Both the position numbers and the translations under genes were made by a program. From contig CP066697.1 in assembly GCA_016432625.1 (NCBI GenBank), positions 671,951-735,950 of the forward strand: a stretch of DNA of 64,000 nt, written 5' to 3'. The stretch's first letter is position 1, and each line of letters starts with the position of its first letter. This document shows positions 36,770 through 48,329 of this stretch, one piece after another. Below the pieces are notes generated by a model, which saw only the letters and a list, made by a program, of their open reading frames with translations, was not told where the DNA came from and did no database searches. The stretch is from Candidatus Berkelbacteria bacterium. GTDB taxonomy: Bacteria > Patescibacteriota > UBA1384 > 2-12-FULL-50-11.

Positions 36770-38817
36770 ATCGCTTCTTGAACGCACTAGCCGTGTTTGG
36801 CGCCGTCGGGCTGATCGCCCTTAACACTTGGTATCTGAACAACCCAGTTCTCGGGATTTTTGGCCTCTTCGCTTATTGTTTTATTCTCAGCCGGCATTTT
36901 GGCGCCCGACTGGGCTTGGGGAGCAACCTCGGGCAGAACTTAGTCGGTCTACTTTTCTTGCTTGCCTCTCTCGCCCTGTTCGGTGCGGTACTGATCGCGG
37001 GTGCGGCGCTAACTAAGTCACTAACGATCGCCGCACTAGCGGCGCTCGGTCTTTTCAGCCTGGCCCCACCAATAAAGACAGTCGCCGTGGCTACTGAAGC
37101 GACGCCTACCGAGGACGACGACCAGCTCCTGCCACCACTGTTCAGTCGGATTTCTTTTGCAGTTTTTGTTGGTTCGGTCTTAGGAATGGTAATTATCCTG
37201 CTCTTTTTGCGTAACGGCGATTACTACTATCGCTATTGGGATATCCTGCCGATTAAGTATTGGGTAACGGCCGCCGTGGCGTTGGTGAGTTTTGCCTGTG
37301 TTTTAGTCGGTAAGTTGCCCCCGAAATTGAAACTACTTAGCATCGTCGCGTTTGGCTTAGTAATCCACGGGACGATCCTGATGCTTGCCCGAACTGAGTA
37401 CGACGGCGACGGTTACCGACACCTATCGATCGAACGATACCTAACAACAGAGCTGCCACTGTACCAGCTGACCGCTCTAACTCTAACCGACATCATTTAC
37501 CTAGGTTCCTGGGCACTAAACGTTATGGTTTCTTGGCTTACCCAAGTCCCAATAGACATTGTTCACAACTACCTGCCCTGGCTCTCTGTGTCGGTCTTCC
37601 CTCCGGTGTTGCTGTACCTTGCCGGCCAGGAAGTCTGGAAACGTCGACTGCCGGCGCTATTGATGGCAGTCGCGCCGCTGTTCTTCTACGAAGTAACTGT
37701 CCATGGGATGATCTCGAACCCAAAGTCGCTCGGCTACATACTCCTAATCTTCAACATCCTCCTGGCCCTAAGAACGATTAACTCACCTAGGCTTATTTGG
37801 CTGCCCGGCGCGATCGTCGCTTTTAGTAGCCTGATGACTTACCCCCTAACCGGGCTATTCAGCCTGATGGTATTCCTACTGAGTCTGTTTTCCCGATGGC
37901 GTTTCAGTCTCGGGCGAAATCTGTTTTTTATCATTATCTGCCTGGCAGGAGCCGCGGCCTTTCCTTATTTAGACTGGCAAACTGGTTCTAATTTTCCGTT
38001 CACAGATTGGGTAGATATGAGCGTCCAGCTTCTAGCCAAGTGGGCCTCGGTGATTCTACTGACAGGCCGGCAGATCTCGTTCCCGCTGTTGCTCTACTTC
38101 TTAGTCGGGCTTGGCCTGTTTCGGCTTTACGCCCAACCAAGTACGCGGCGTTATGTGCCTTTACTTCTCCTGCCGCTTATCGCGACACATTTGGCTTACG
38201 CCTGGCGTCTAAGCTTGCCGATTCAGCCAGCTTTTACAGCCCGAATTTACATCTCGCTCGCGGTATTCTTGATGCCGTTTATCGCCGGCGGCATTGCTTC
38301 CTTAAGCGATAGCGCCGGCGTGCTTCTCGGTAAAGCGCGAGGCAGCCTGATAGTTCTTGCGCTAGTGCCTTTATTCGTCGCCGCTACTCATGCCATCAGC
38401 CCAACCACCTGGAGTATTTCGACCCGAGAGATTGAGGCGATTAAAGCCATTGACGAAGAAAATCCTGATCGAAGCTACGTGGTTCTAACCGAAGAGATTA
38501 CTTCCGCCGCGGCCAACGCCGTGCTTGGCTACACCGTAGCGCCGTACTACCGCTACCCGACCGGCGACCTCTTCCAGTTCTCAAGCGAAATCAGTTTACG
38601 ACCGAGCATAGATACCTTGGAGCGAGCACGACGTCATTTCAACGTGAGAAAAGTTTACGTCATCACCAATCCGCTGCCGCCGTTTAACGATCAAGTAGCG
38701 CGTAAACGCTTCGAACAAATTCTGCCGGTTCACCTAAACTACGACAACCGGGTCTTTGTTTTCCGTTACCCAGGGCCAGTAGTAGAGCCGCGTGAGTCAG
38801 ACAAAGAAACGCCGTAG
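36766..38817 (+). CDS. Large multi-pass membrane protein (683 aa), possibly a GT-C-type glycosyltransferase or polymerase
   Basis: More than 12 predicted TM helices. Located in a glycan cluster. No soluble catalytic domain is recognisable. Confidence 0.4.
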   Translation: MNRFLNALAVFGAVGLIALNTWYLNNPVLGIFGLFAYCFILSRHFGARLGLGSNLGQNLVGLLFLLASLALFGAVLIAGAALTKSLTIAALAALGLFSLAPPIKTVAVATEATPTEDDDQLLPPLFSRISFAVFVGSVLGMVIILLFLRNGDYYYRYWDILPIKYWVTAAVALVSFACVLVGKLPPKLKLLSIVAFGLVIHGTILMLARTEYDGDGYRHLSIERYLTTELPLYQLTALTLTDIIYLGSWALNVMVSWLTQVPIDIVHNYLPWLSVSVFPPVLLYLAGQEVWKRRLPALLMAVAPLFFYEVTVHGMISNPKSLGYILLIFNILLALRTINSPRLIWLPGAIVAFSSLMTYPLTGLFSLMVFLLSLFSRWRFSLGRNLFFIIICLAGAAAFPYLDWQTGSNFPFTDWVDMSVQLLAKWASVILLTGRQISFPLLLYFLVGLGLFRLYAQPSTRRYVPLLLLPLIATHLAYAWRLSLPIQPAFTARIYISLAVFLMPFIAGGIASLSDSAGVLLGKARGSLIVLALVPLFVAATHAISPTTWSISTREIEAIKAIDEENPDRSYVVLTEEITSAAANAVLGYTVAPYYRYPTGDLFQFSSEISLRPSIDTLERARRHFNVRKVYVITNPLPPFNDQVARKRFEQILPVHLNYDNRVFVFRYPGPVVEPRESDKETP

Positions 38818-46487: not shown

Positions 46488-48329
46488 ATGTGTGGCATCA
46501 CCGGGCTCATTACTTCGTCGACAGGTCTCGAGAAGCGCTTGAAGAAGATGGCCGACGTCATCAGCCATCGCGGTCCGGACGACGAGGGTTTCTGGATCGA
46601 CGATAAGGGCGAGGTTGGCTTGGGTCACCGTCGCTTATCTATCATCGATTTATCGAGCGCCGGTCACCAACCGATGGCCAACGAGGATGGGACGGTCTGG
46701 ATTGTTTTTAACGGCGAGGTTTATAACTTCGGTGACATCAAGCCTGAGCTTGAAGCCAAAGGGCATGTTTTTCGCTCCCAGACCGACAGCGAGGTACTGA
46801 TTCATGCTTACGAGGAGTACGGCGAGAAGATGGTAGGCAGACTCAACGGCATGTGGGCGTTCATTATTTACGACACAAAAAACCAACGCCTGTTCGCCTC
46901 CCGCGACCGCATGGGCGTCAAACCGCTTTATTACTACCGCTCCGGCCAGGACTTAGTGTTAGGCTCTGAAATCAAAGCGATTCTTGCCTCAGATCTAGTG
47001 AAGCCGGCTGTTGATTTGGAGGGCTTGAACGAGTACTTCACTTTTCAGAATATCCTCAGCGAGCGGACGTTATTTGCCGACGTCAAGATGCTACCAGCCG
47101 GATATAATCTGACTTACGACCTCGCCAAGAAACGGCTCAGTCTCAGCCAATACTGGGACCTAAAATACGCGCCGGAGAATAAGAGTGAGGATGAGTTCGC
47201 CGAGATGATTACGGAGACTTTCCGCGAGTCGATGGATCGCCATCTCATTAGTGATGTGCCTGTTGGGGCAACAATCAGCGGCGGCATGGACTCCTCAGCA
47301 ATTGTCGCTACTACGACCAAACATTTCCGTAATCTCGACACTTTCACCGGCGGCTTTGACACCAAGAACTTGGCTGAAGGTGATCGCTCGTTCGACGAGC
47401 GCGGCGACGCCCGACTAATCGCTAAGACTTTTGGCACTAATCACCACGAACGCCTAATTAGTCCGAGTGACGCCTTAGACTACCTGCCTTCAATCGCTTA
47501 CCACTTCGAAGACCCGAAAGTCGCGATGTGCTACACCTTCTACCTGATCGCCGAGATCGTCAGCAAGGAGGTGAAGGTCGTTCTATCTGGTTCTGGTGGT
47601 GACGAGGCTTTTGCCGGCTACCCGTGGCGCTACCAACTTATTGAAGGCAAAACCAACCGCCACGACTTCGACCAAGCGCTATACGGCTGGTGGAGCCGGT
47701 TAGTTAAAGACCAAGACAAAAAGCGCTTCTTTACTCCAAGGGTCTTGGGCCAGATTGATTTAAAAACGCCGTTTAAAGAGTACGGCAAAATTATCGACGC
47801 CGCTGGCGACGTTTCGCCGGTCAACAAAACACTCTACTTCGAGAATAAAACCTTCCTGCACGGTATGTTGATGGTTGAGGACAAGATGGATATGGCCTTC
47901 TCCGTTGAGGGTCGGGTGCCATTTCTGGATAACGAGATGGTCGATATCGCCAGGCGGATTCCTGACGAGCTTAAATACCGCGGCGGTAACGGTAAGTATT
48001 TGTTGCGCAAGGCCTTCAAACAGCTCTTGCCGGAGGAAATTACCGAAAAGCGGAAGCAAGGCTTTACGCCGCCCGATCAGACCTGGTACCGCCGCGAGCT
48101 AAAAGATGACATTGAGGATCTGCTGATGGGCCAAAAAACCCTTAGCCATCAATACATTAACCCAACCTATATTCGCCAAGTTCTTGACGAGCATAACGCC
48201 GGCGCCGATAACCGCTTAATTATGTGGAGCCTAATGTTCTTTGAGTGGTGGTGCCGGATTTATCTTGACGGCCAAAAGGTACCAACTTTGGGTAACGAAA
48301 AAGTGCCCACCCGCGTTCAAGCCGGGTAG
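46488..48329 (+). CDS. asnB: Asparagine synthase (glutamine-hydrolysing)-like amidotransferase, second copy
   Basis: 'MCGITGLI' N-terminus and 'ISGGMDSSAIV' PP-loop. 613 aa. Confidence 0.9.
   Translation: MCGITGLITSSTGLEKRLKKMADVISHRGPDDEGFWIDDKGEVGLGHRRLSIIDLSSAGHQPMANEDGTVWIVFNGEVYNFGDIKPELEAKGHVFRSQTDSEVLIHAYEEYGEKMVGRLNGMWAFIIYDTKNQRLFASRDRMGVKPLYYYRSGQDLVLGSEIKAILASDLVKPAVDLEGLNEYFTFQNILSERTLFADVKMLPAGYNLTYDLAKKRLSLSQYWDLKYAPENKSEDEFAEMITETFRESMDRHLISDVPVGATISGGMDSSAIVATTTKHFRNLDTFTGGFDTKNLAEGDRSFDERGDARLIAKTFGTNHHERLISPSDALDYLPSIAYHFEDPKVAMCYTFYLIAEIVSKEVKVVLSGSGGDEAFAGYPWRYQLIEGKTNRHDFDQALYGWWSRLVKDQDKKRFFTPRVLGQIDLKTPFKEYGKIIDAAGDVSPVNKTLYFENKTFLHGMLMVEDKMDMAFSVEGRVPFLDNEMVDIARRIPDELKYRGGNGKYLLRKAFKQLLPEEITEKRKQGFTPPDQTWYRRELKDDIEDLLMGQKTLSHQYINPTYIRQVLDEHNAGADNRLIMWSLMFFEWWCRIYLDGQKVPTLGNEKVPTRVQAG

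What the first reader, a model, noticed from the sequence alone, without database searches (positions are those of the whole stretch)
38797..48329. Two AsnB-like amidotransferases plus a zinc-ribbon methyltransferase embedded in the glycan locus
Two divergent, full-length glutamine-dependent asparagine-synthase paralogs (621 and 613 aa) flank a sub-cluster of Wzx, a methyltransferase, GT paralogs and an SDR epimerase. In O-antigen clusters such AsnB-like enzymes (WbpS/WbpG type) amidate uronic acids or form acetamidino groups rather than make asparagine. Combined with the UDP-GlcNAc3NAcA pathway, this predicts amidated and methylated uronic-acid sugars.
Basis: inference. Interest (0 to 1): 0.5.

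Follow-up and report, generated by a model that had tools for sequence, protein, structure and literature searches.

The report
Paired AsnB-like glycan amidotransferases
Two look-alikes of asparagine synthetase sit inside a surface-sugar gene cluster of a tiny-genome (CPR, Berkelbacteria) bacterium; they most likely turn sugar acids into sugar amides rather than make asparagine, which is a known kind of enzyme seen here in two little-studied branches.

Summary
In detail: all seven genes lie exactly where stated. The window comes from a Candidatus Berkelbacteria MAG (CPR), so the locus is a surface glycan cluster, not an LPS O-antigen cluster.

Both 621-aa and 613-aa proteins keep the Cys2 glutaminase nucleophile, the PP-loop and the ATP-site lysine. 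Both lack the glutamate that known asparagine synthetases need (human E364 = E. coli E348; E364Q/A are inactive).
- AsnB1 has Gln, as do 117/117 database homologs.
- AsnB2 has Ser; its homologs have Thr/Ala/Ser and never Glu or Asp.

Each belongs to its own clade. Neither reaches the NCBIfam cutoff for E. coli-type AsnB or for TIGR03108, the family reported to hold WbpS/WbqG.

The two clades recur together across phyla. They travel with an SDR epimerase, Wbp-type diacetamido-uronic-acid genes, methyltransferases and a small divergent GT4-like family.

The best reading is two glutamine-dependent sugar-carboxylate amidotransferases. Precedents are WbpS/WbqG, P. gingivalis PGN_1234 and the three amidotransferase paralogs of the Bordetella wbm locus.

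The exact substrates, the timing of amidation and the methyltransferase target remain inferred. I could not align WbpS directly. Verdict: a new member of a known kind, of modest interest.

The parts
38797..40662 (-). AsnB-like amidotransferase 1 (Gln-type clade), 621 aa. MCGI N-terminus, PP-loop SGGLDSS, motif DGQGADE. Last gene of the five-gene minus-strand operon.
   Evidence: Gln at the E. coli E348 position is invariant in A2 and present in 117/117 database homologs.
40663..41688 (-). GT-like A, 341 aa. Divergent GT-B (GT4-like) glycosyltransferase, abutting AsnB-like 1.
   Evidence: No Pfam hit. Only 199 homologs at E<=1e-5. AlphaFold2 pLDDT 93.9. Best Foldseek matches are the GT4 enzymes MshA, PglA and BshA, E about 1e-11.
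41688..43175 (-). Wzx-type (MOP) flippase, 495 aa.
   Evidence: PF01943 E = 1.2e-25.
43156..44085 (-). Class-I SAM methyltransferase with an N-terminal Trm112/RlmA-like ribbon (CPDC-x13-CKRQH). The probable true start is the ATG giving 306 aa.
   Evidence: PF08241 E = 3e-11. NF008300 RlmA-like weak hit over residues 13-171. L001 gene call of 306 aa. Homolog alignment.
44088..45305 (-). GT-like B, 405 aa. Paralog of GT-like A with an N-terminal membrane segment. First gene of the minus-strand operon.
   Evidence: 31% identity to GT-like A, E = 8e-39. Glycos_transf_1 25.9 bits, just under the 26.4 cutoff.
45306..45398 (.). Divergent intergenic region between the GTlB-MTase-Wzx-GTlA-AsnB1 operon and the SDR-AsnB2 operon. 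It presumably holds both promoters.
   Evidence: Coordinates; sequence read. Promoter function is inferred, not tested.
45399..46478 (+). Extended-SDR nucleotide-sugar epimerase/dehydratase, 359 aa, 9 bp upstream of AsnB-like 2.
   Evidence: PF01370 E = 1.4e-56. Best PDB hits: UDP-Glc 4-epimerase 4zrm (174 bits), WbpP 1sb8 (138 bits), UDP-GlcA decarboxylase (134 bits). An SDR directly upstream of the AsnB2 ortholog is conserved in L002, L003, L007, L014, L076 and L143.
46488..48329 (+). AsnB-like amidotransferase 2 (Thr/Ser-type clade), 613 aa. MCGI N-terminus, PP-loop SGGMDSS, motif SGSGGDE.
   Evidence: Homologs carry T/A/S/V and never E or D at the E348 position.
48351..49451 (-). WbpE-like DegT aminotransferase, 366 aa.
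   Evidence: PF01041 E = 7e-125. P. aeruginosa WbpE 3nu7 at 287 bits.
49509..50177 (-). WbpD/WlbB-like hexapeptide N-acetyltransferase, 222 aa, with a C-terminal four-Cys ribbon.
   Evidence: 3mqg (WlbB) 162 bits, E = 1e-46. Sequence ...WTCECGNPLREHDQGRLVCTDCGRAY. Weak Trm112p hit.
50174..51112 (-). GFO/IDH/MocA oxidoreductase, 312 aa, in the WbpB position. Closest to the UDP-GlcNAc 3-dehydrogenase model.
   Evidence: PF01408. NF040723 151 bits, below the 450 cutoff. No WbpB/WlbA structure hit at E<=1e-10.
51298..52632 (-). Nucleotide-sugar 6-dehydrogenase (WbpA/WbpO/WecC-like), 444 aa. It is the only uronic-acid-forming enzyme found in the window.
   Evidence: TIGR03026 397 bits, above the 189.8 cutoff. 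Three UDPG_MGDP_dh Pfam domains. No other dehydrogenase was found among ORFs >=150 aa.

Best explanation
Both proteins are glutamine-dependent, ATP-dependent (acyl-adenylate-forming) amidotransferases. They convert a carboxyl group of a glycan building block into a primary amide (uronic acid to uronamide). They serve a Wzx-dependent surface-glycan pathway of a CPR bacterium, not asparagine supply.

Proposed route (inferred):
1. The single 6-dehydrogenase makes a UDP-HexNAc-uronic acid.
2. The oxidoreductase, aminotransferase and acetyltransferase convert part of it to UDP-2,3-diacetamido-2,3-dideoxy-hexuronic acid.
3. The SDR changes its configuration, most likely at C4.
4. AsnB-like 2, translationally adjacent to the SDR, amidates C6 of that nucleotide sugar.
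5. AsnB-like 1, coupled to GT-like A and Wzx, amidates a second uronic-acid species. This could be another epimer or the mono-acetamido branch fed by the same dehydrogenase.
6. The two divergent GT4-like paralogs would transfer the amidated sugars, and the methyltransferase adds a methyl group to an unknown position.

Shown here: domain integrity, loss of the Asn-synthetase glutamate, clade structure and conserved gene linkage.
Inferred: the substrates, amidation at the nucleotide-sugar stage, the GT pairing and the methylation target.
For: 1. Catalytic equipment is intact. Cys2, the glutamine-site residues (R, N-G-E and D equivalents), the PP-loop SGGxDSS and the E. coli K449 equivalent are invariant in alignment A3.

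2. The glutamate in S-G-E-G-S-D-E is conserved in known asparagine synthetases, and human E364Q/E364A are inactive (PMC6748925). It is Gln in AsnB1 and Ser in AsnB2 in an ungapped, well-anchored alignment. Gln occurs in 117/117 AsnB1 homologs. AsnB2 homologs have T84/A23/S5/V4/N1/G1 and no E or D. An NJ tree puts all 82 Gln-type proteins, and 17 of 18 T/S/A-type proteins, into single pure clades.

3. The E. coli-type AsnB model NF006949 scores 304 and 315 bits, below its 499 cutoff. The best solved relative is TsnB9 hydroxyamidotransferase (7ylz), not AsnB.

4. Operon structure: GTlB-MTase-Wzx-GTlA-AsnB1 are overlapping or abutting genes, and SDR-AsnB2 are 9 bp apart.

5. Conserved context. 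AsnB2 orthologs follow an SDR and sit with Wbp genes in a second CPR genome, in Horticoccus (Verrucomicrobiota), in Tumidithrix (Cyanobacteria), in Burkholderiales and in metagenomes. L007 runs colinearly wbpA-wbpB-wbpD-SDR-AsnB2-type.
   - Among the 17 closest AsnB2 relatives, at least two Wbp genes lie within 10 kb in 9/16, against 1/15 and 3/71 for more distant family members.
   - AsnB1 relatives always lie among GT4 genes, Wzx and often a UDP-GlcNAc 2-epimerase.
   - The Gln-type + Thr/Ser-type + GT-like triad recurs in the window, L002, L003, L005 and L170.

6. Precedent.
   - Deleting P. gingivalis PGN_1234 (an AsnB homolog next to wbpE/wzx) abolishes the uronamide of a 2,3-di-N-acyl-glucuronic acid (PMC7468200).
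   - WbpS/WbqG are tied to GalNAcAN, and an H. pullorum wbpS mutant incorporates HexNAcA instead of HexNAcAN (PMC6025236).
   - The Bordetella wbm locus for poly-L-GalNAc3NAcA(N) has three amidotransferase paralogs (PMC2615507).

7. The upstream pathway is real: WlbB-like 3mqg 162 bits, WbpE 3nu7 287 bits, TIGR03026 dehydrogenase.
Against: - No biochemical or structural-glycan data exist for this organism or for either clade.
- Both proteins pass the broad NCBIfam TIGR01536 'asparagine synthase' model (485 and 490 bits, cutoff 267), and NCBI names them so.
- Neither reaches the TIGR03108 cutoff, and I could not obtain WbpS, WbqG, PGN_1234 or WbmC/I/Z sequences. Direct relatedness to proven uronamide synthases, and which residue those carry at the E348 position, are therefore untested.
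- Only one uronic-acid-forming dehydrogenase is in the window, so a second carboxylate substrate for the second enzyme has to be assumed.
- The WbpB-position enzyme is divergent.
- The rest of the roughly 769-kb genome could not be read, so the presence or absence of another asn gene is unknown.
- The metagenome loci were fetched with a pattern that itself contained the Gln. That subset is biased, so the Gln claim rests.
Confidence: 0.65

Rival explanations
1. One or both are the organism's housekeeping glutamine-dependent asparagine synthetase and happen to lie in the glycan cluster.
For: Both exceed the cutoff of the TIGR01536 'asparagine synthase (glutamine-hydrolyzing)' model, and NCBI annotates them that way. 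The glutaminase and adenylation motifs are intact. No other asn gene is visible in the 64-kb window.
Against: The glutamate essential for asparagine synthesis (human E364Q/A inactive) is Gln or Ser here and is never Glu in either clade. E. coli R325 and T322/T323 are also replaced. NF006949 scores are below cutoff. The genes are tightly coupled in operons with GT, Wzx and SDR genes. The glycan context is conserved across phyla, including in large genomes, which presumably have their own asn genes; this was not checked.
Confidence: 0.04
2. One of the two, more likely AsnB-like 1, amidates a peptide or peptidoglycan carboxylate (mDAP or D-Asp), as L. plantarum AsnB1 and L. lactis AsnH do, rather than a sugar acid.
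For: AsnB-family enzymes do amidate peptidoglycan precursors in monoderm bacteria (PMC4155827). CPR bacteria are thought to be monoderm with peptidoglycan (my own knowledge). Only one uronic-acid source is seen for two amidotransferases. A VanW/PG-binding protein lies at 25025-26884.
Against: L. plantarum asnB1 co-localises with murE. Here, and in all eight AsnB1-clade loci inspected, the neighbours are GT4 genes, Wzx, sugar epimerases and a second AsnB-like gene, with no mur genes seen.
Confidence: 0.08
3. The two clades are not redundant uronamide synthases. One of them, lacking the catalytic Glu, performs a different PP-loop reaction on the same sugar. Examples would be further conversion of an amide (amidine- or nitrile-type chemistry, as in other PP-loop enzymes such as QueC) or amidation of a non-uronic carboxylate substituent.
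For: Each clade has its own fixed residue at the catalytic-Glu position (Gln versus Thr/Ser/Ala). The two clades co-occur repeatedly in one cluster across phyla (9/16 close AsnB2 loci), although only one dehydrogenase is present. The closest solved relative, TsnB9, already shows altered chemistry in this family: it is deposited as a hydroxyamidotransferase.
Against: No precedent for such chemistry in Ntn-AsnB-type enzymes is known to me. Bordetella also carries three paralogs for what appears to be a simple uronamide. The simplest reading of a retained glutaminase domain plus PP-loop is carboxylate to amide.
Confidence: 0.1
4. Amidation happens after transfer, on the lipid-linked repeat unit or the polymer, rather than on the nucleotide sugar. 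The adjacency of AsnB-like 1 to Wzx and the GT would reflect that timing.
For: Veith et al. state that the position of WbpS in the pathway is unknown. King et al. could not exclude a polymer substrate in Bordetella. AsnB-like 1 is the last gene after GT and Wzx.
Against: Both proteins are soluble cytoplasmic-type enzymes that need ATP and glutamine (inferred from their domain families; no localisation or topology test was run). In the H. pullorum wbpS mutant HexNAcA is incorporated and the next GT stalls, which fits amidation before transfer. AsnB2 orthologs are embedded among nucleotide-sugar enzymes (SDR, DegT).
Confidence: 0.15

Closest known systems
WbpS (P. aeruginosa O6), WbqG (E. coli O121) and H. 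pullorum WbpS: AsnB-like amidotransferases tied to GalNAcAN/HexNAcAN formation
   Same: Two-domain AsnB-type enzymes encoded in glycan clusters beside a UDP-HexNAc 6-dehydrogenase and a C4-epimerase-type SDR. The predicted reaction is uronic acid to uronamide.
   Different: Reported to belong to TIGR03108; the window proteins score 435 and 472 bits against a cutoff of 816.9. Their sequences could not be obtained, so identity, tree position and the residue at the E348 position are untested. The host here is a CPR bacterium, not a Gram-negative bacterium with LPS or N-glycans.
P. gingivalis PGN_1234 (WbpS of the Wbp/Vim pathway)
   Same: Acts in the 2,3-diacetamido-glucuronic-acid (WbpA/B/D/E) pathway. 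The gene lies just after wbpE and wzx, and its deletion abolishes the uronamide. The window has the same Wbp genes, and AsnB genes lie after Wzx (AsnB1) and next to WbpE (AsnB2).
   Different: P. gingivalis has a single amidotransferase, whereas here two clades are paired. The P. gingivalis product is a linking sugar for T9SS cargo on A-LPS, which has no counterpart in a CPR cell.
Bordetella bronchiseptica wbm locus (WbmC, WbmI, WbmZ)
   Same: Several glutamine-dependent amidotransferase paralogs in one locus that makes a 2,3-diacetamido-2,3-dideoxy-hexuronic acid/uronamide polymer. This is the closest precedent for 'more than one AsnB-like gene per cluster'.
   Different: There are three paralogs, whose individual roles are unresolved. 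No WbmE-like periplasmic deamidase was looked for or seen here. No sequence comparison was possible.
E. coli AsnB / human ASNS (bona fide asparagine synthetase B)
   Same: Same two-domain architecture, Cys nucleophile, glutamine site, PP-loop and ATP-site lysine. About 31% identity to E. coli AsnB over the whole alignment; the best-matching stretch to 1ct9 is the glutaminase domain.
   Different: The catalytic Glu348/364 is replaced (Gln/Ser), and R325 and T322/T323 are replaced. NF006949 is below cutoff. The window proteins have long insertions in the synthetase domain and a different C-terminus.
TIGR03108 XrtA/PEP-CTERM-system amidotransferase (eps_aminotran_1)
   Same: Best-scoring specific NCBIfam model after the generic TIGR01536. 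An EPS-locus AsnB-like family of similar length.
   Different: Scores are far below cutoff. The representatives that score highest to this model carry Asp ('SGDGGDE', 707-729 bits), whereas the window clades carry Gln or Thr/Ser. No XrtA/PEP-CTERM genes appear among the window's scanned ORFs.
L. plantarum AsnB1 / L. lactis AsnH (peptidoglycan amidotransferases)
   Same: AsnB-family enzymes that amidate a non-aspartate carboxylate on a cell-envelope precursor.
   Different: Those genes associate with peptidoglycan genes (murE). The window genes and their clades associate with GT, Wzx and sugar-nucleotide genes.

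Membership tests
AsnB superfamily (Ntn glutaminase + PP-loop adenylating synthetase) | N-terminal Cys nucleophile directly after the initiator Met | tested here: met
   MCGIAG... and MCGITG.... MC start in 117/120 and 109/120 homologs.
AsnB superfamily (Ntn glutaminase + PP-loop adenylating synthetase) | Glutamine-site residues (E. coli R49, N74-G75-E76, D98) and PP-loop SGGxDS | tested here: met
   All are invariant columns in alignment A3 with E. coli AsnB. SGGLDSS / SGGMDSS are present. The residue roles come from my own knowledge of structure 1CT9.
AsnB superfamily (Ntn glutaminase + PP-loop adenylating synthetase) | ATP-site lysine (E. 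coli K449 / human K466) | tested here: met
   Invariant column K450 (Met1 numbering) in A3. Role of the residue per PMC6748925.
Bona fide asparagine synthetase B (E. coli AsnB / human ASNS) | Curated equivalog HMM NF006949 at or above its cutoff of 499 bits | tested here: not met
   303.8 and 315.1 bits, matched in 3 stretches.
Bona fide asparagine synthetase B (E. coli AsnB / human ASNS) | Catalytic glutamate in S-G-E-G-S-D-E (E. coli E348 / human E364), required for activity | tested here: not met
   Gln371 in AsnB1 (DGQGADE) and Ser369 in AsnB2 (SGSGGDE). Never Glu in 117 + 118 homologs. E364Q/A are inactive.
Bona fide asparagine synthetase B (E. coli AsnB / human ASNS) | Makes asparagine from aspartate | not testable with these tools
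   Needs an enzyme assay or complementation of an Asn auxotroph.
TIGR01536 asn_synth_AEB (generic NCBIfam 'asparagine synthase, glutamine-hydrolyzing') | HMM score at or above 267.1 bits | tested here: met
   485.1 and 490.4 bits. The model is broad: the ten AsnB-like proteins from other fetched loci scanned also pass it (471-548 bits).
TIGR03108 eps_aminotran_1 (family reported to hold WbpS/WbqG/PGN_1234) | HMM score at or above 816.9 bits | tested here: not met
   435.3 and 472.4 bits, in two stretches. These are lower than eight of the ten other AsnB-like representatives tested and comparable with the two Gln-type ones (458-729 bits).
WbpS-type uronamide synthase (functional class) | Genetic linkage to enzymes that make a UDP-(di)acetamido-hexuronic acid | tested here: met
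   WbpA/B/D/E-like operon lies 22 bp to 4.3 kb from AsnB2. The linkage is conserved in relatives.
WbpS-type uronamide synthase (functional class) | Loss of the uronamide when the gene is deleted, or in-vitro amidation of a UDP-uronic acid | not testable with these tools
   Needs genetics with mass spectrometry, or biochemistry.
WbpS-type uronamide synthase (functional class) | Phylogenetic grouping with WbpS/WbqG/PGN_1234/WbmC,I,Z | not tested
   Reference sequences could not be obtained.
WbpG/PseA-type N-acetyl-sugar amidotransferase (acetamidino formation) | Match to that PP-loop family (no fused Ntn glutaminase; usually with HisH/HisF-like partners) | tested here: not met
   No such family appears among the NCBIfam hits at E<=1e-5 for either protein. 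No HisH/HisF-like ORF was found in the scanned window ORFs. The family definition comes from my own knowledge.
Wbp/Wlb UDP-2,3-diacetamido-2,3-dideoxy-hexuronic acid pathway | 3-N-acetyltransferase (WbpD/WlbB) and 3-aminotransferase (WbpE) | tested here: met
   3mqg 162 bits, E = 1e-46. WbpE 3nu7 287 bits.
Wbp/Wlb UDP-2,3-diacetamido-2,3-dideoxy-hexuronic acid pathway | C6 dehydrogenase (WbpA) and C3 dehydrogenase (WbpB/WlbA) | tested here: inconclusive
   The dehydrogenase passes TIGR03026 only at subfamily level. The GFO oxidoreductase is closest to the UDP-GlcNAc 3-dehydrogenase model (151 bits, cutoff 450) and has no WbpB/WlbA PDB hit at E<=1e-10. Gene order fits the pathway.
GT4-like GT-B glycosyltransferase (the two 'GT paralogs') | GT-B two-Rossmann fold resembling retaining GT4 enzymes | tested here: met
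   pLDDT 93.9, pTM 0.91. Foldseek MshA/PglA/BshA/PimA with probability 1.00 and TM 0.6-0.73.
GT4-like GT-B glycosyltransferase (the two 'GT paralogs') | Pfam Glycos_transf_1 at or above the gathering score | tested here: not met
   GT-like A has no hit. GT-like B scores 25.9 bits against a 26.4 cutoff.
Zinc-ribbon / Trm112-like module on the methyltransferase | Four metal ligands in two knuckles | tested here: inconclusive
   CPDC...CKRQH gives three Cys plus one His. There is no Pfam hit. Homologs range from 2xCxxC to a single Cys.

The most novel reading that the evidence does not exclude
The Gln-type (AsnB-like 1) and Thr/Ser-type (AsnB-like 2) clades, both lacking the catalytic glutamate of asparagine synthetases, are two functionally distinct enzymes. 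In this reading they work as an obligate pair with their own divergent GT4-like transferases. One of them would carry out chemistry beyond simple uronic acid to uronamide, such as a second nitrogen insertion on the same sugar. Together they would build a so far undescribed nitrogen-rich sugar that decorates the surface of CPR bacteria and, through a horizontally shared cassette, of cyanobacteria, Verrucomicrobiota and others.
Probability: 0.1. Interest if true: 0.65.

Novelty: new member of a known kind. Interest (0 to 1): 0.3.

Why it matters
1. Annotation. These genes are named 'asparagine synthase' in public records, including in CPR genomes whose metabolic reconstructions count amino-acid pathways. 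The residue at the E. coli E348 position (Glu versus Gln or Thr/Ser/Ala) offers a simple sequence marker to separate at least two glycan-linked clades from true asparagine synthetases.

2. CPR biology. A genome of roughly 0.77 Mb spends more than 30 kb on a surface glycan. That glycan is predicted to carry charge-neutralised (amidated) diacetamido-uronic acids, which is relevant to how these episymbionts present themselves to hosts and phages.

3. Enzymology. The recurrent triad of two amidotransferase clades plus a small GT4-like family, found also in the cultured cyanobacterium Tumidithrix helvetica PCC 7403, gives a tractable route to ask why glycan loci such as Bordetella wbm carry several amidotransferase paralogs.

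None of this is conceptually new, because AsnB-like uronamide synthases are established.

Tried and rejected
- **Reference sequences for a WbpS phylogeny.** blastn ('distant') of the AsnB2 gene against all complete E. coli genomes found nothing, so wbqG could not be located. King et al. 2010 is not in the held library.
- **Rest of the source genome.** It could not be searched for asnA, asnB or asnS. Only an 18-kb Logan contig was retrievable for AsnB1, and nothing for AsnB2.
- **TIGR03108 as a proxy.** I tried to identify which motif type equals WbpS-like. None of ten representatives reached the cutoff, so this only ranks similarity (Asp-type highest).
- **Neighbourhood statistics.** My first run used single-sequence phmmer and a crude ORF caller that over-extends starts. 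It missed some neighbours, for example the SDR in L002 and WbpB in L007, so the counts are lower bounds.
- **Bias in the 77/77 Gln count.** That count from the metagenome loci was partly circular, because the search pattern LDGQG[AG]DE contains the Gln. It was replaced by the unbiased count.
- **Acetamidino (WbpG-type) reading.** Rejected, because there is no such family hit and no HisH/HisF partner.
- **Rfam scan.** No RNA families were found in the window.
- **Literature search for aspartate-site residues by E. coli numbering.** It found nothing. The human numbering was used instead.

Full report
**1. Observation**

- AsnB-like 1: 38797-40662 (-), 621 aa.
- AsnB-like 2: 46488-48329 (+), 613 aa.

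Both carry a complete class-II (Ntn) glutaminase domain and a complete Asn_synthase domain (Pfam E = 1e-85 to 1e-88). They are 33% identical.

On the minus strand between them lie GT-like B, a class-I SAM methyltransferase, a Wzx flippase and GT-like A. These four genes plus AsnB-like 1 overlap or abut, so they form one five-gene operon. On the plus strand an extended-SDR gene ends 9 bp before AsnB-like 2.

The two GT-like ORFs are paralogs (31% identity, E = 8e-39). GT-like A has no Pfam hit, yet it folds with high confidence (pLDDT 93.9) as a GT-B enzyme closest to retaining GT4 transferases such as MshA, PglA and BshA.

The 'zinc ribbon' on the methyltransferase is a CPDC-x13-CKRQH element. 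Its position matches a double CxxC ribbon in distant homologs, but the ligands are not conserved in the closest homolog.

The same gene order is present on an independent metagenome contig.

**2. Source and setting**

Both AsnB-like proteins are 100% identical to NCBI proteins of a Candidatus Berkelbacteria MAG, on a 768,791-bp contig. This is a CPR/Patescibacteria genome, so 'O-antigen' is the wrong frame. From about 30.9 kb to 62.5 kb the window is one large glycan region with:
- two Wzx genes;
- three Wzy_C-family proteins;
- several GT4 and GT2 genes;
- a polyprenyl-phosphate sugar synthase with a GT-C-like membrane partner.

Directly beside AsnB-like 2 lies a minus-strand operon. It encodes a nucleotide-sugar 6-dehydrogenase (TIGR03026), a GFO-family 3-dehydrogenase-type oxidoreductase, a WlbB-like acetyltransferase (3mqg, 162 bits) and a WbpE-like aminotransferase (3nu7, 287 bits). 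The premise of a UDP-2,3-diacetamido-2,3-dideoxy-hexuronic acid pathway therefore holds. The oxidoreductase step is assigned only at family level. This is the only uronic-acid-forming dehydrogenase found in the window.

**3. Are they asparagine synthetases?**

The curated E. coli-type AsnB model is not met: 304 and 315 bits against a cutoff of 499. Only the broad TIGR01536 model is passed, which explains the public annotation.

The best solved relative is TsnB9 hydroxyamidotransferase (7ylz). E. coli AsnB (1ct9) aligns well mainly over the glutaminase domain.

I took E. coli asnB from MG1655 and aligned it with both proteins and their homologs.
- Conserved: the Cys nucleophile, the glutamine-site residues, the PP-loop and the ATP-site lysine.
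- Changed: the motif S-G-E-G-S-D-E becomes D-G-Q-G-A-D-E in AsnB-like 1 and S-G-S-G-G-D-E in AsnB-like 2. E. coli R325 becomes Phe or Cys.

Zhu et al. 2019 report that this glutamate (human E364) is conserved in known asparagine synthetases and that E364A and E364Q are inactive (PMC6748925).

The substitution is a clade property. Among the 120 best database homologs of each protein:
- 117/117 scorable AsnB1 homologs carry Gln.
- AsnB2 homologs carry Thr 84, Ala 23, Ser 5, Val 4, Asn 1, Gly 1, and never Glu or Asp.

More distant AsnB-like proteins in the fetched loci mostly carry Glu or Asp. A neighbour-joining tree rooted on E. coli AsnB places all 82 Gln-type sequences in one pure clade with AsnB-like 1. 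It places 17 of 18 Thr/Ser/Ala-type sequences in one pure clade with AsnB-like 2.

My inference is as follows. The acidic pocket that holds the alpha-amino group of aspartate is remodelled, as expected for a substrate without a free amine, while the adenylation and ammonia-delivery machinery stays under selection.

**4. What travels with them**

Pfam-annotated neighbourhoods of relatives and a scan of 166 fetched loci with the window's proteins show three patterns.

AsnB2-clade genes follow an SDR and lie with Wbp genes:
- L002: a second CPR genome, with SDR, AsnB2 ortholog, methyltransferases, two GT-like genes, a Gln-type AsnB and then WbpB/E/D/A.
- L003: Horticoccus, Verrucomicrobiota.
- L007: colinear wbpA-wbpB-wbpD-SDR-AsnB2-type-GT-like-MTase.
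- L010: Tumidithrix helvetica PCC 7403, with wbpA-B-D-E-SDR plus both AsnB types.
- L076: Burkholderiales.

A variant module, SDR-DegT-AsnB2-type, occurs in Sphingobacteriaceae, Ignavibacteria, Melioribacteraceae and an alphaproteobacterium.

Quantitatively, comparing the 17 closest AsnB2 relatives with the two more distant score bins:
- At least two Wbp genes within 10 kb: 9/16, against 1/15 and 3/71.
- GT-like family present: 9/16, against 0/15 and 3/71.
- A Gln-type partner present: 9/16, against 1/15 and 7/71.

These counts are lower bounds because the detection was insensitive.

AsnB1-clade genes always sit among GT4 genes, usually with a Wzx, often with a UDP-GlcNAc 2-epimerase, and often next to a GT-like family member.

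**5. Comparison with what is known**

AsnB-like uronamide formation is established genetically.
- WbpS/WbqG are tied to GalNAcAN (King et al. 2010, as cited).
- The H. pullorum wbpS mutant incorporates HexNAcA instead of HexNAcAN, and the next transferase stalls (PMC6025236).
- Deleting P. gingivalis PGN_1234, which lies downstream of wbpE and wzx, abolishes the uronamide of a 2,3-di-N-acyl-glucuronic acid (PMC7468200).
- The Bordetella wbm locus, which makes poly-L-GalNAc3NAcA/AN, carries three glutamine-dependent amidotransferase paralogs whose division of labour is unknown (PMC2615507).

So both the enzyme kind and the presence of several paralogs per locus have precedent.

Veith et al. place WbpS/WbqG/PGN_1234 in TIGR03108. 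The window proteins score only 435 and 472 bits against its 816.9 cutoff. They are among the most remote from that model of the sequences I tested; the Asp-type proteins come closest at 707-729 bits. I could not obtain the reference sequences, so direct relatedness is untested.

Peptidoglycan amidotransferases of the same superfamily (L. plantarum AsnB1, L. lactis AsnH) are a rival for one of the two. However, their genes sit with mur genes, not with GT and Wzx genes.

**6. Mechanism proposed**

- Shown: two intact glutamine-hydrolysing, adenylate-forming amidotransferases that lack the Asn-synthetase glutamate. They are co-transcribed with glycan genes, and the linkage is conserved.
- Inferred: AsnB-like 2 amidates C6 of the SDR-epimerised UDP-2,3-diacetamido-hexuronic acid.
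- Inferred: AsnB-like 1 amidates a second uronic-acid species derived from the same dehydrogenase. The two GT4-like paralogs transfer the amidated sugars, and the methyltransferase adds a methyl group at an unknown site.

I put about 0.65 on 'both are glycan carboxylate amidotransferases' and much less on the individual substrate assignments.

**7. Verdict**

This is a new member (two uncharacterised clades) of a known kind of enzyme, in an unusual host.

The most useful by-products are:
- a simple sequence marker separating these clades from true asparagine synthetases;
- the recurrent two-amidotransferase plus GT4-like cassette;
- cultivable carriers in which to test it.

Interest is modest (0.3).

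Noticed in passing
window 49509-50177 (-), residues about 186-211: The WbpD/WlbB-like hexapeptide acetyltransferase ends in a four-Cys ribbon (WTCECGNPLREHDQGRLVCTDCGRAY) with a weak Trm112p Pfam hit. Two enzymes of this locus (this one and the methyltransferase) therefore carry appended ribbon modules. The L002 and L007 orthologs are shorter (185-192 aa) and may lack it.
   Followed up: partly
window 48001-52000 versus 36001-48000: The Wbp-like operon has G+C of 0.58, against 0.50-0.53 for the adjacent AsnB/GT/Wzx cassette. This suggests a separate, possibly horizontal, origin for the two blocks.
   Followed up: no
window 32041-33231, 60060-61250, 61243-62493 (all -); Wzx at 41688-43175 and 56434-57918: There are three Wzy_C ('O-antigen ligase' family) proteins and two Wzx flippases in a bacterium not expected to have LPS. 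They could be polymerases or PglL-like O-oligosaccharyltransferases. Type IV pilus genes (T2SSF, pseudopilins) lie at 6-11 kb in the same window.
   Followed up: no
window 53021-53740 (-) and 53813-55303 (+); also 36766-38817 (+): A PpgS/AglJ-like polyprenyl-phosphate sugar synthase (GT2) lies divergent from a multi-pass membrane protein with a weak DUF6541 hit. A 683-aa multi-pass protein with no family hit overlaps the 3' end of AsnB-like 1 by 21 bp. Together these look like a lipid-carrier/GT-C type extracytoplasmic glycosylation module.
   Followed up: no
L010 (Tumidithrix helvetica PCC 7403, NZ_CBDDRA010000004.1) 978-18513: A cultured cyanobacterium carries the whole cassette: Gln-type AsnB, wbpA-B-D-E, SDR, Thr-type AsnB and a GT-like B homolog. 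It is a tractable organism for testing the function.
   Followed up: partly
L009, L011, L013, L015, L048 (around locus positions 7600-11900; L048 4590-8656): A recurrent three-gene module, SDR-DegT aminotransferase-AsnB2-type (genes 1-31 bp apart), occurs in Bacteroidota, Ignavibacteriota and Alphaproteobacteria. It hints at an amino-uronamide sugar pathway distinct from the window's arrangement.
   Followed up: partly
fetched loci: Across the wider AsnB-like family, the residue at the E. coli E348 position falls into discrete types (Glu, Asp, Met, Gln, Thr/Ser/Ala, Leu) that track tree clades. Acidobacterial loci often carry two or three paralogs of different types side by side (for example L034, L054, L058).
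   Followed up: partly
window 1108-6201 (-): A 1697-aa protein with weak Kelch/beta-propeller hits sits immediately downstream of pseudopilin-like genes (N_methyl motif proteins at 7698-10032). It could be a pilus-associated adhesin.
   Followed up: no
window 12200-13700: A G+C-rich (0.576) stretch contains only short overlapping ORFs, with no Rfam family and no tandem repeats. Its content is unexplained.
   Followed up: partly
window 33241-33798 (-): A NUDIX hydrolase (with an NDPSase_N hit on L001) is embedded between a GT4 and a Wzy_C gene in the glycan cluster. It may act as a nucleotide-sugar hydrolase or in proofreading.
   Followed up: no
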